A stretch of DNA of 64,000 bases. Origin: a virus. Taxonomy: Duplodnaviria > Heunggongvirae > Uroviricota > Caudoviricetes. Position numbers: made by a program. The stretch is from the IMG/VR virus record IMGVR_UViG_2880395615_000008. The stretch is one strand, 5' to 3'. Shown in pieces: positions 28,601 to 31,600 of the stretch. Numbering within the stretch: the first letter of the stretch is position 1; every line of letters starts with the position of its first letter.

Positions 28601-31600
28601 CTTAATCATGCAGCGATGAATACACTTCTCGGCGAGCGGGTGATGGACCGCATGTCCATGAACGGAGGTCGCTGGGTGACGTTTAACTGGGAGAGCTGGC
28701 GTCCGAACGTCAGCCAGCACAGGAACTGAGAAGTAATTTTTATCCGGAGGAAATTTTAATGGAAACCGTATTGCATGCACTGAAAGCGATGGGTAAAGCC
28801 AATTCTGTTGAACTGGCGGCGCGGCTTGATATCAGCCGTGAAGAAGTTCTCAACGAACTGTGGGAACTCAAAAAAATAGCGTTGTTGATAAAACGGGTCA
28901 CACCTGGTTTCTGGCTGGCGAAGGTGAATCCGGGGTAACCGAAGAGCGGCCAGTAAAATCTGAAGCACAGGATATGCTGACCAGGGAGGTCGAACAAAAA
29001 GTTACCGCAGACATGATGATTGAGTTTATCGGTCAGGATGGGGCTAAAACGTGTGAGGAACTGGCGGGTAAGTTCGGTGTCAGTACTCGCAAGGTTGCTT
29101 CCGCGCTGGCGGTGGTAACCGCAACGGGGCGGCTGGCACGCGTTAATCAGAACGGTAAATTTCGTTACTGCATGCCGGGCGATAATTTACCAGCAGAGCC
29201 GAAAGCCGCGCTGGTAACGGAAAGTGATGGTAAGGCCTTTCCTCAGCCAGCAGGTGCTGCGTTACCAGTCCGGGAAGCCGCAACACAGGAAGAAAATAAA
29301 ACAGAAACTGTGGCGGTCACAGTGCAGTCACAGCCGTTGTTCACCAGAAAACATCCGGATGGTCTGATTTTACCATCGCTGCATGTGGCTAACCGCGAGC
29401 TGCGCCGGGCAAAAGGTCAGGTTCAGAAGTGGGAGCGTGTCTGCGCCGCGCTGCGGGAGCTGAACAAGCACCGGGATATTGTTCGGCAGATTGTCGATTC
29501 ATCCGGTCGTATTGTGTCGGAAAAGTGATTGCCGGAGGCGCTTATGGCGAAACCTTTTACACACGAACAGCGTGAAGAACTGAAGGCCCGAATTATCGGG
29601 CTGGTACGCAAAAATGAACGCATGACGATATCACAACTGGAGAGAGCGACGGGAGCAGGCTGGCATTCAGTCAGACGTTGCCTTGTGGATGTACTGGCTT
29701 GCGGCGATTTATACATGCCCGGTAAATACGGTGTTTTTACATCAGAACAGGTGTATCGCGTATGGCGTAAGGCAGCGGAGAAAACAACCGACCAGACATT
29801 GATTCGAAAGTTACCAGACGGAGAAATACGCCGCTACGACAGACAACAGAACATAATCTGTGGCGAGTGCCGGAAGAGTGAAGTTATGCTGCGTGTACTG
29901 GCGTTCTATCAGGGCAATTTTCAGGAGGCGGTATTGTGAGTGAATTAGCTATCAGGCTTCAATTGTCGCTGGCATTCACATCAAAGGAGAAGAGCATGGA
30001 AATAAAACCAGAAGATGAGTTAAGCAATATCGTTTTATTTCCGGTAAAAGAGGATGACCCACGTAATCAGGTTAATTTTCTTTATGAGCCATCGGAAAGA
30101 GCATATTGTCATCACGCCTCTGTTCGGGTTGACGAAAAAGAGCGTCAGGTCCGCTGTAAAATCTGCGGTGCAGTTGTGGAGCCATTTGACTGGATGCTCT
30201 CTGTGGCGAAAAGAGAAACCAGACTGGCAGATGATGTAAGGATCTTGCGCCAGGAGGAACGGGAAAGGCGGAGAAATATAGAAAAGCTAATTCAGATTGA
30301 GCGTAACGTGAAAGCGCGGATACGCAGGGTGACAAAATCCAGAACTGAATAATTAAATTTAGCTCTGTTAAAAATTTAATCCTTAACCGGAGGTATATCA
30401 ATGTCAAACGCACAGAAAGTTATTAACGCTGAAAAATATAACGAGTGGGTGAAAAAGTTCTCAGAGCAGATTTTTAAAATTACTGGCGACGAGAATGCGG
30501 CAAAAAATGAATTAGAGCCGTGGACACCTGAAGGTGTCGACCCAAATTATTGCTGGTGGGATGTTGATCCAGTTGATGCTGCAAATGAAGCTATGAGTTA
30601 TCACAACGATTAATGTCAGGAGGCCGCCCGAAAGGGCGGTAATGAAAAGTGACTGAATTAACCAAAGAGAAATTAATCGAAGAAGCCAAATTAAAAATAG
30701 CGATTGCGAAATGCTACCCCAATTCAGGGATGGCACGGGTAGAGGGCGAGTTATTCAAAATTGCACTGGCATCGCTGGAAGCAGAACCGATAGCGTGGGA
30801 ATGCGGTGAAAACATAATCCTGTTTAACCCTGACACAGTTGAAGCATACGCAAAACGTGCGGAAATATCACCTAAACCACTATTCTCCGCGCCGCCAGCG
30901 CTGGTAGTGCCTGATAAGTTGCCGCGTGAATACAGAAACGGTTGGCCTCTTGCGTATAGTGATTATGCTGAAGGCTGGAACGACTGCCGCGAAGCCATGC
31001 TTCAGGGAGATAAATCATGATTAATCGTATCAAGCTGGAGCACATCCTCGAATATGCCAGGCAGCAGAGGCATATTGGTCAGCATTGTAAAATTCCACCA
31101 GGAGATATGGTTGAAATCATGGAGATTGCCATGCGCAAGGCTGGCAATTCTCCGGTAACTCCGGATGGTTGGATAAGCTGTAGTGAGCGAATGCCGAATA
31201 CCAAAACAGCCGTTCTTGTTGCCGTGGAGTTTGACAGGAAAGGTGACTGGCGAATGAAATGGGCTACTTACATCCCGGGGCATCCTGACGCTAATGATGG
31301 GTGGATAATTCCTGGTGCGTCGTGGAAACCGTCACACTGGATGCCGCTACCAGAACCGCCGCAGGAGGTGCGCCAATGATCTGGCCTGAAGCCTTTGCAA
31401 TTACAGGCGTTGCTATAGCTATTGATTTTTTAGTATATGTTATTTGTCGGTGGGGGTAAAAACGTTCGCCGGGATTCACACCAAAGGAGGGAATATGTCG
31501 GATGATATTTCACTGGCAATGGAAGGTGCGCTGGCTGTTATTGCTGTTGTGGGCGTTTACTGCCTGGTTGTGTTTTTGATGGATCGACTAGGGAACTGAA

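What the first reader, a model, noticed from the sequence alone, without database searches (positions are those of the whole stretch)
28759..29528. Overlapping reading frames with an A7 tract: possible split or frameshifted gene
A 59-aa ORF (28759..28938) overlaps a GTG-initiated 222-aa ORF (28860..29528) in another frame, and an AAAAAAA run at about 28869..28875 lies in the overlap. This could be a real small gene plus a downstream gene starting at ATG 28974, a frameshift pseudogene, or a programmed frameshift.
Basis: seen in the sequence. Interest (0 to 1): 0.4.

Follow-up and report, generated by a model that had tools for sequence, protein, structure and literature searches.

The report
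Frameshifted prophage gene (DUF1627/YdaW)
The two overlapping reading frames are one ordinary prophage gene of unknown function (DUF1627/YdaW family) broken by loss of a single A from an eight-A run; it is a rare but real mutant allele, not a designed frameshift.

Summary

Inserting one A gives a 771-nt, 256-aa ORF. Its product is identical to a known E. coli DUF1627 protein recorded on at least 1000 contigs, and it matches phrog_630 end to end.

All 44 copies at 99% identity or more in 5,426 complete E. coli genomes carry A8 and one intact CDS. Exact A7 was found at 0 of 898 places with the window's allele and in 1 of 651 matching records with the common allele, where RefSeq marks it "frameshifted". 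All six isolated phages with the gene have A8.

The A7 allele is not a sequencing error. Five contigs from separate samples are 100% identical to the window across it.

No downstream RNA structure, internal promoter or conserved two-frame arrangement supports programmed frameshifting or two separate genes.

One caveat: the zero-frame context CUC-AAA-AAA-AUA contains C-AAA-AAA. That heptamer gave 25-60% -1 ribosomal frameshifting in an E. coli overexpression vector, and a -1 slip here would recreate the wild-type protein. The allele may therefore be leaky; this is untested.

Verdict: ordinary homopolymer frameshift pseudogene in an O157:H7-type lambdoid prophage. Low interest.

The parts
28759..29528 (+). 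Whole DUF1627/YdaW-family gene, disrupted by a 1-nt deletion (pseudogene by annotation standards). Restoring one A gives a 771-nt, 256-aa ORF.
   Evidence: The restored translation is an exact match to a known 'DUF1627 domain-containing protein [Escherichia coli]' seen on at least 1000 contigs. It matches phrog_630 over 1-252 of 253 positions, E 4.6e-132. Orthologous CDSs of 771 nt are annotated in FRIK944, 61_150228, 2011C-4251, PhiR5_2 and POCJ13.
28746..28750 (+). GGAGG Shine-Dalgarno sequence, 8 nt upstream of ATG 28759.
   Evidence: Read directly from the sequence.
28759..28938 (+). 5' fragment ORF (59 aa). Residues 1-39 are authentic N-terminal sequence, which looks like the helices of a winged helix-turn-helix. 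Residues 40-59 are out-of-frame read-through ending at TAA 28936.
   Evidence: Only weak, sub-threshold hits to wHTH families (HVO_A0261_N, Cmi2_C, Crp_2, MarR_2, DeoR). The exact 59-aa product is deposited as ANE66958.1 and found on 7 further contigs.
28870..28876 (+). A7 tract, the site of the 1-nt deletion (A8 in intact alleles). With C28869 it forms the zero-frame heptamer C-AAA-AAA, followed by the rare codon AUA.
   Evidence: Alignment with PhiR5_2 and POCJ13. Pairwise indel lists against FRIK944 and 61_150228. Every hit at 99% identity or more spans 832 nt against the 831-nt query. Slippery-site listing.
28860..29528 (+). 3' fragment in the -1 frame (frame open from 28842). It carries the second wHTH-like region and the DUF1627 domain. 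Possible internal starts are GTG 28860 and ATG 28974; neither has a well-placed SD.
   Evidence: Pfam PF07789 DUF1627, E 7.3e-88, 292.6 bits against a cut-off of 28.1, residues 57-211. Gene callers elsewhere used either the 222-aa or the 184-aa start. Sequence context.
27989..28729 (+). Upstream neighbour: DnaC/IstB-like helicase-loader ATPase of the prophage replication module. Context only, not part of the pseudogene.
   Evidence: Pfam IstB_IS21, E 1.3e-17. Annotated as 'ATP-binding protein' or 'DnaC' in the orthologous loci.
29544..29939 (+). Downstream neighbour: DUF977 family protein (annotated LygF or 'Ren-like' in some phages). Context only.
   Evidence: Pfam PF06163, E 3.6e-72. Annotations.

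Best explanation
This is a single DUF1627/YdaW-family gene of a lambdoid prophage, the E. coli O157:H7 'PPompW'-type prophage next to ompW. It lies in the early-right operon directly after the O-like and DnaC-like replication genes. It has lost one A from an A8 homopolymer (Lys-Lys-Asn, AAA AAA AAT), most likely by replication slippage.

Translation from the strong start at 28759 now leaves the native frame after Lys39, inside the first winged-helix-like domain, and stops at TAA 28936. The remaining 217 codons, including the DUF1627 domain, sit in the -1 frame. The allele is a real, heritable and rare mutant shared by a small group of isolates. By annotation standards it is a frameshift pseudogene.

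Shown: the deletion, its rarity, its presence in independent assemblies, and the intact single-ORF state of the family. Inferred: slippage as the cause, and loss or strong reduction of function. The reduction may be incomplete, because a -1 ribosomal slip at C-AAA-AAA(-AUA) would regenerate the exact wild-type protein.
For: 1. Adding one A yields a 256-aa ORF identical to a known E. coli protein on at least 1000 contigs. It is collinear with phrog_630 over 1-252 of 253 positions.
2. DNA alignment shows A8 in PhiR5_2 and POCJ13, and AAAAAGG (no long run, in frame) in pPE4. All three have one 753-771-nt CDS.
3. In 5,426 complete E. coli genomes, all 44 copies at 99% identity or more differ from the window by the extra A (832 against 831 nt) and are annotated as one intact DUF1627 CDS.
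4. Exact A7 occurs at 0 of 898 places for the window's allele and in 1 of 651 matching records (880 places) for the common TGGC allele. PGAP labels that one copy 'frameshifted'.
5. All six phage records with this 5' allele have A8.
6. It is not a read error. Contigs L010-L014, from five different samples, are 100% identical to the window over 1.3-4.0 kb including A7.
7. The assembly is not riddled with homopolymer errors. Against the nearest complete genome there are 47 substitutions but only 3 indels in 21.1 kb. Mapped onto that genome's annotation, the other two fall between annotated CDSs.
8. Other 59-aa variants (KKMALL...; position 53 A, V or S) occur in other allele backgrounds, some on up to 25 contigs each. 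This indicates recurrent A8 to A7 loss at this site.
Against: The part downstream of the frameshift has no further damage: the restored protein is 100% identical to the intact one. This fits a very recent mutation, but it would also fit a gene that is still expressed and under selection.

The context C-AAA-AAA, in the same phase as here, gave 25-60% -1 ribosomal frameshifting in E. coli in the pDEST17 T7 overexpression vector (PMC1851650). Single-base deletions in E. coli reporters were suppressed at 1-10% overall (PMC10861913). 'Pseudogene' may therefore overstate the loss of function.

I could not inspect raw reads of the source genome.
Confidence: 0.9

Rival explanations
1. Leaky or 'rescued' frameshift. 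The A7 allele still makes a biologically meaningful amount of wild-type DUF1627 protein. This would happen by -1 ribosomal frameshifting at C-AAA-AAA, by P-site slippage on A-AAA before the rare AUA codon, or by RNA-polymerase slippage adding an A. The gene would then be attenuated rather than dead, by accident and not by design.
For: The zero-frame context is CUC-AAA-AAA-AUA, and a -1 shift reads AAA-AAU-AGC, giving L-K-K-N-S, exactly the intact sequence. The same heptamer and phase gave 25-60% -1 frameshifting in E. coli BL21(DE3)/pDEST17, with transcriptional slippage excluded there (PMC1851650). The rescue window 28842..28936 also holds A-AAA followed by rare CGG (28890) and G-GGG followed by the TAA stop (28932). 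Single-base deletions were suppressed at 1-10% overall in E. coli (PMC10861913). No secondary damage has accumulated downstream.
Against: There is no measurement for this sequence. The pDEST17 values come from T7 overexpression, varied 25-60% with the insert, and the following codon there was GCA, not AUA. No stimulatory structure lies downstream (MFE z = +0.60), and I see no SD-like element at the stimulatory spacing upstream. From my own knowledge, single-tRNA A-AAA slips such as IS1 run at about 1% or less. A7 is below the run length of about 9 at which bacterial transcriptional slippage is usually exploited (PMC1088944, plus my own knowledge).
Confidence: 0.35
2. Programmed recoding. The two-frame layout is the designed state, and a set ratio of a 59-aa product to the full-length product is made by -1 ribosomal frameshifting or transcriptional slippage, as in dnaX or IS elements.
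For: A functional slippery heptamer is present in the right phase. The short product would keep the helices of a wHTH-like domain. The allele is inherited in several isolates.
Against: The arrangement is not conserved: 0 of 898 places and 1 of 651 records in complete E. coli genomes, and 0 of 6 phage records. The family profile is one continuous 253-position protein. A diverged homologue (pPE4) has no A run at all yet is in frame. There is no downstream structure. The out-of-frame tail, residues 40-59, has no family of its own beyond copies of the same lesion.
Confidence: 0.03
3. Two independent genes: a real 59-aa DNA-binding protein, plus a downstream DUF1627 gene starting at GTG 28860 or ATG 28974.
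For: GenBank and automatic gene callers annotate it that way: ANE66958.1 'DNA-binding protein' and ANE66959.1, with 184-aa calls elsewhere. A 59-position PHROG, phrog_16668, matches the N-terminal part.
Against: Orthologues are one ORF across the junction. Residues 40-59 of the short ORF are the out-of-frame reading of conserved in-frame sequence. There is no SD before GTG 28860, and the AGGA before ATG 28974 is only 1 nt away. No promoter-like site lies in 28400..29800. The short-protein records are probably the same lesion annotated at face value.
Confidence: 0.03
4. Sequencing or assembly error in a homopolymer; the true sequence would be A8.
For: Homopolymer length miscalls are common. No complete RefSeq E. 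coli genome has this exact allele. One carrier assembly, L008 (GCA_033660325.1), is visibly error-prone, with 34 gap openings in 9.4 kb and fragmented replication genes.
Against: Five other contigs from separate samples are 100% identical to the window over 1.3-4.0 kb with A7. They include SRA-run assemblies from the Logan collection. The window shows only 3 indels against 47 substitutions in 21 kb relative to its nearest complete relative.
Confidence: 0.04

Closest known systems
DUF1627 (Pfam PF07789) / YdaW family / phrog_630, e.g. WP_000450888.1 of E. coli O157:H7 prophages and gp18 of Shigella phage POCJ13
   Same: Same gene and same position, after the O-like and DnaC-like or P genes and before DUF977. 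The restored product is 100% identical to a known protein deposited as 'DUF1627 domain-containing protein [Escherichia coli]'. The DUF1627 domain scores 292 bits.
   Different: The window copy has A7 instead of A8 and is split over two frames. The family's function is unknown. The only functional hint is that the K-12 Rac ydaW fragment was a blocker of the retron-Sen2 toxin RcaT in an overexpression screen (bioRxiv 10.1101/2020.06.22.160242).
The 'frameshifted' DUF1627 pseudogene of E. coli 2014C-3338 (NZ_CP027452.1, C6W71_RS24140)
   Same: The same A8 to A7 loss at the same site, in another allele of the gene. PGAP annotates it as a frameshifted pseudogene.
   Different: It lies in a different allele (TGGC after the run) and a different prophage background, so it is probably an independent event.
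pDEST17 attB1 C-AAA-AAA -1 ribosomal frameshift site (Belfield et al. 2007, PMC1851650)
   Same: The heptamer and reading phase are identical: xxC-AAA-AAA with both AAA codons in the zero frame. There, as would be the case here, the -1 shift corrected a 1-nt deletion and gave active full-length protein.
   Different: That was an artificial vector under T7 overexpression, and the next codon was GCA rather than AUA. Nothing has been measured for this gene, so the resemblance concerns mechanism only.
dnaX and IS1/IS3-type programmed -1 frameshifting
   Same: Lys-codon slippery run, and a -1 direction.
   Different: Those sites are conserved and have stimulators: an upstream SD and a downstream hairpin for dnaX, and overlapping conserved ORFs for IS elements. 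Here there is no conservation of the layout and no predicted structure.

Membership tests
DUF1627 / YdaW family (PF07789, phrog_630) | Significant match to the PF07789 domain model above the gathering score | tested here: met
   292.6 bits against a cut-off of 28.1, E 7.3e-88, profile positions 1-155 of 155.
DUF1627 / YdaW family (PF07789, phrog_630) | One continuous protein of about 253-256 aa covering the N-terminal wHTH-like region and the DUF1627 domain | tested here: not met
   As it stands, the window gene is split into a 59-aa and a 222-aa frame. After adding one A it matches phrog_630 over 1-252 of 253 positions and equals a known 256-aa protein. It is therefore a disrupted member of the family.
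DUF1627 / YdaW family (PF07789, phrog_630) | Conserved position in the lambdoid replication module (after O-like plus DnaC-like or P, before DUF977) | tested here: met
   Window genes. The same order is seen in PhiR5_2, POCJ13, FRIK944, 2011C-4251 and 61_150228.
Frameshift pseudogene (homopolymer indel) | Intact homologues are collinear across the break, and a single-base change restores the full ORF | tested here: met
Frameshift pseudogene (homopolymer indel) | The disrupted state is rare or sporadic among close relatives | tested here: met
   0 of 44 near-identical copies, 0 of 898 places, 1 of 651 matching records and 0 of 6 phage records.
Frameshift pseudogene (homopolymer indel) | The lesion is in the DNA, not a sequencing artefact | tested here: met
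   Five contigs from separate samples are 100% identical to the window including A7. Raw reads were not inspected.
Frameshift pseudogene (homopolymer indel) | Loss of the functional product | not testable with these tools
   This needs protein-level data. Published results on C-AAA-AAA suggest possible leakiness.
Programmed -1 ribosomal frameshift (dnaX / IS type) | Slippery site in the correct phase within the overlap | tested here: met
   C-AAA-AAA at 28869..28875 in the zero frame. It is not the canonical X-XXY-YYZ form but has been shown to be slippery in E. coli (PMC1851650).
Programmed -1 ribosomal frameshift (dnaX / IS type) | Stimulatory element: a downstream hairpin or pseudoknot, or an upstream SD at about 10-14 nt | tested here: not met
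   Folding 28877..28960 gives z = +0.60, and 135 of 200 shuffles fold at least as well. I see no SD-like sequence at the stimulatory spacing upstream. Pseudoknots were not searched for.
Programmed -1 ribosomal frameshift (dnaX / IS type) | Two-frame arrangement conserved among homologues | tested here: not met
Programmed transcriptional slippage | Long A/T run (typically 9 or more in bacteria) with a conserved out-of-frame layout | tested here: not met
   The run is A7 and the layout is not conserved. The length criterion comes from PMC1088944 and my own knowledge.
Phase-variable contingency locus | ON and OFF repeat lengths both common among closely related strains | tested here: not met
   OFF (A7) is about 0.1% of copies in complete genomes. 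Recurrence in several alleles shows a mutational hot spot, not a balanced switch.

The most novel reading that the evidence does not exclude
The A7 allele is not dead. Efficient -1 ribosomal frameshifting at C-AAA-AAA, helped by the rare AUA codon that follows, regenerates the wild-type DUF1627 protein at a substantial level (10% or more). The recurrent A8/A7 change would then act as a reversible dimmer of this prophage gene, which would explain why the downstream frame shows no further decay.
Probability: 0.08. Interest if true: 0.4.

Novelty: already known. Interest (0 to 1): 0.12.

Why it matters
It matters mainly for annotation. The 59-aa 'DNA-binding protein' and the 184- or 222-aa 'DUF1627 protein' deposited for this locus are two halves of one gene, not two genes. 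Small protein families built from such fragments probably reflect lesions of this kind rather than real small genes; phrog_16668 may be an example, though I did not inspect its members.

The locus is also a convenient natural test case for how much a C-AAA-AAA context rescues a 1-nt deletion at native expression levels. It opens no new biology. The function of DUF1627/YdaW remains unknown either way.

Tried and rejected
1. Short 41- and 42-nt queries centred on the A run, meant to count A7 against A8 alleles in complete E. coli genomes, returned nothing. The likely cause is that BLAST's low-complexity filter masks the run and leaves no 28-nt seed. I replaced them with 71-nt queries.
2. A downstream frameshift-stimulating RNA structure: folding 28877..28960 is no better than shuffled sequence.
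3. An internal promoter for the downstream fragment: none in 28400..29800.
4. A known RNA family inside the finding: none. The four Rfam hits in the window lie elsewhere.
5. Similarity between the DUF1627 fragment and the neighbouring DUF977 protein, prompted by a weak 'Ren-like' PHROG hit: BLASTP gave nothing significant, best E 0.32.
6. Solved structures: no significant sequence match. The best hit was the ADAR1 Z-alpha domain at E 0.059.
7. Minus-strand ORFs over the region (28740..28997 and 28756..28968) have no support and are covered by the plus-strand gene.
8. I did not run structure prediction or the large protein-database searches, because they would not change the verdict.

Full report
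**What is there**

The window between 26.3 and 30.4 kb is the early-right region of a lambdoid prophage. In order it contains:
- Cro-like and YdaT-like genes;
- an O-like HTH_36 replication initiator (27014..27982);
- a DnaC/IstB-like ATPase (27989..28729);
- the finding itself;
- a DUF977 gene (29544..29939).

ATG 28974 is in the frame of the second ORF. The second ORF is in the -1 frame relative to the first. Its frame is open from 28842, so both frames are open across the run. The first ORF has a good GGAGG ribosome-binding site 8 nt upstream. GTG 28860 has none. The AGGA before ATG 28974 is only 1 nt from the start codon.

**What it is**

The second ORF carries a complete DUF1627 domain (PF07789, E 7e-88). 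Orthologous loci have one uninterrupted CDS of 771 nt (256 aa) in exactly this position. I checked Escherichia phage PhiR5_2, Shigella phage POCJ13 and E. coli strains FRIK944, 61_150228 and 2011C-4251. The more distant Actinobacillus-labelled phage pPE4 has a 753-nt CDS.

The DNA alignment shows that the window differs at the junction by one missing A: A7 here, A8 in PhiR5_2 and POCJ13. The codons are CTC AAA AAA AAT, reading Leu-Lys-Lys-Asn. pPE4 has AAAAAGG at this position, with no long run, and is in frame.

Adding one A to the window sequence gives a 256-aa protein. That protein is an exact match to a deposited 'DUF1627 domain-containing protein [Escherichia coli]' recorded on at least 1000 contigs. 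It aligns end to end with PHROG family 630, positions 1-252 of 253, E 4.6e-132.

**How common is the split state**

- Of 5,426 complete E. coli genomes, 2,716 carry the gene.
- All 44 copies at 99% identity or more span 832 nt against the 831-nt query. Each of them therefore carries one more base than the window, which direct comparison with two of them (FRIK944 and 61_150228) places in the A run. All 44 are annotated as an intact DUF1627 protein.
- A 71-nt probe across the run found 898 places, none of them an exact A7 match.
- The same probe built for the commoner allele (TGGC after the run) found one exact A7 copy among 651 matching records (880 places). It lies in strain 2014C-3338, where PGAP labels the gene 'frameshifted'.
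- All six phage records that carry this 5' allele have A8.

The two-frame layout is therefore a rare exception, not a conserved design.

**Is it a sequencing error?**

Probably not. The exact 59-aa product is deposited as ANE66958.1, next to the 222-aa ANE66959.1, on a 5.43-Mb genome that is probably the source. It is also encoded on seven other contigs. Five of these come from different samples: GCA_000747445.1, GCA_054591695.1, SRR13262423, SRR19369424 and SRR22393481. All five are 100% identical to the window over 1.3-4.0 kb, including A7.

A sixth contig (SRR28576432) has the same 5' part but diverges downstream, so it is a mosaic. A seventh (GCA_033660325.1) is a visibly error-prone assembly and does not count.

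Against its nearest complete relative (strain 61_150228) the window shows 47 substitutions but only three indels in 21.1 kb. Mapped onto that genome's annotation, the other two indels fall between annotated CDSs. The assembly is therefore not riddled with homopolymer errors.

Twelve further members of the same 90% cluster, eleven of them 59-61 aa long, differ at positions that reflect different parental alleles. Some are seen on up to 25 contigs. This shows that A8 to A7 loss recurs at this site. The run is a minor mutational hot spot.

**Mechanism**

The best explanation is replication slippage in an A8 run that exists only because of Lys-Lys-Asn codon choice. Translation starting at 28759 leaves the native frame after Lys39. 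By weak, sub-threshold wHTH-family matches, that is after the helices of an N-terminal winged-helix-like domain and before its wing. Translation then terminates at 28936. The second wHTH-like region and the DUF1627 domain are left in the -1 frame without a good start of their own.

I found no promoter-like site within 28400..29800, no RNA family within the finding, and no RNA structure downstream of the run (z = +0.60). The comparative data and these checks together reject both programmed recoding and the 'two real genes' reading.

**A caveat worth recording**

The zero-frame context is CUC-AAA-AAA-AUA. The heptamer C-AAA-AAA, in this same phase, is the site in the pDEST17 attB1 sequence where Belfield et al. 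demonstrated -1 ribosomal frameshifting of 25-60% in E. coli. That frameshifting corrected engineered 1-nt deletions, and transcriptional slippage was excluded (PMC1851650).

Here a -1 slip would read AAA-AAU-AGC and reproduce the wild-type Leu-Lys-Lys-Asn-Ser. From my own knowledge, the next zero-frame codon, AUA, is rare in E. coli and would favour P-site slippage on A-AAA. Two further tetramer sites lie in the rescue window: A-AAA before CGG at 28890, and G-GGG before the stop at 28932. Springstein et al. measured 1-10% aggregate suppression of single-base deletions in E. coli, with an A-AAA-AAG site dominating in lambda cI (PMC10861913).

The allele may therefore be leaky, which would fit the absence of any secondary damage downstream. 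That absence is equally explained by the mutation being recent. Nothing has been measured for this sequence, and the pDEST17 numbers come from T7 overexpression.

**Comparison with what is known**

The gene is a disrupted member of the DUF1627/YdaW family. The family's function is unknown. Its K-12 Rac representative, ydaW, differs in length and predicted structure between strains such as MG1655 and O55:H7 (PMC9308461). It appeared as a blocker of the retron-Sen2 toxin in an overexpression screen (bioRxiv 10.1101/2020.06.22.160242).

The lesion is the same kind, at the same site, as one that RefSeq already marks 'frameshifted' in another strain. The exact allele is already in GenBank, annotated at face value as two proteins. 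Nothing here is new in kind. The finding is correct as an observation and ordinary as biology.

**Scores**

- Interest: 0.12.
- Novelty: already known.
- The most novel reading not excluded is an allele substantially rescued by -1 frameshifting that acts as a reversible dimmer. I give it a probability of about 0.08, and an interest of about 0.4 if true.

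Noticed in passing
window 24511..24562 (-), 31676..31850 (+), 36759..36959 (+), 10412..10534 (-): Rfam gathering-level hits: DicF antisense sRNA, sok antitoxin RNA (orthologous loci annotate a hokD toxin gene at about this position), STnc100 sRNA and isrC Hfq-binding sRNA. All lie in prophage DNA and none overlaps the finding.
   Followed up: no
window 25687..25693: A G7 run in the window corresponds to G8 in strain FRIK944. The nearest relative, 61_150228, shows no indel there. In FRIK944's annotation the site lies between the DUF1391 and HTH repressor-like genes, so it is intergenic.
   Followed up: partly
window about 32224: The window has one copy fewer of an 18-bp direct repeat (ATAAGAGGGATGGCCCCC) than FRIK944, so repeat copy number varies in the prophage.
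   Followed up: no
window 18479..18920: Relative to strains 61_150228 and FRIK944, the window lacks an ISEc8 (IS66-family) element. It also lacks a block of about 4.6 kb that carries nleG, espM1, an IS630 pseudogene and a DUF1076 gene, located between the nleA-bearing prophage remnant and the ompW-side integrase.
   Followed up: partly
window 11265..12939 and 61462..63110: Two regions both match the same tail-fibre segment of strain 61_150228 at 94-95% identity. This indicates at least two lambdoid prophages with paralogous tail-fibre genes in the window.
   Followed up: no
PHROG families phrog_16668, phrog_11856 and phrog_29124, matched to the restored protein: Separate PHROG families of 59, 160 and 72 positions match only the N-terminal, middle-to-C-terminal and C-terminal parts of the protein. 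They may be built from truncated or frameshifted copies of this same gene annotated as independent proteins, but I did not inspect their members.
   Followed up: no
L008 (GCA_033660325.1, JAWVHR010000014.1): This public assembly shows 34 gap openings in 9.4 kb relative to the window, and its O-like and DnaC-like genes are each split into fragments. It looks like a homopolymer-error-prone assembly, so its A7 call is not independent evidence.
   Followed up: partly
L009 (SRR28576432), locus 5971..6506: This contig carries the identical 5' 211 nt of the gene, including A7, but has 25 mismatches in the following 325 nt and a different immunity module. The frameshifted 5' segment therefore sits in a mosaic, recombinant prophage background.
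   Followed up: partly
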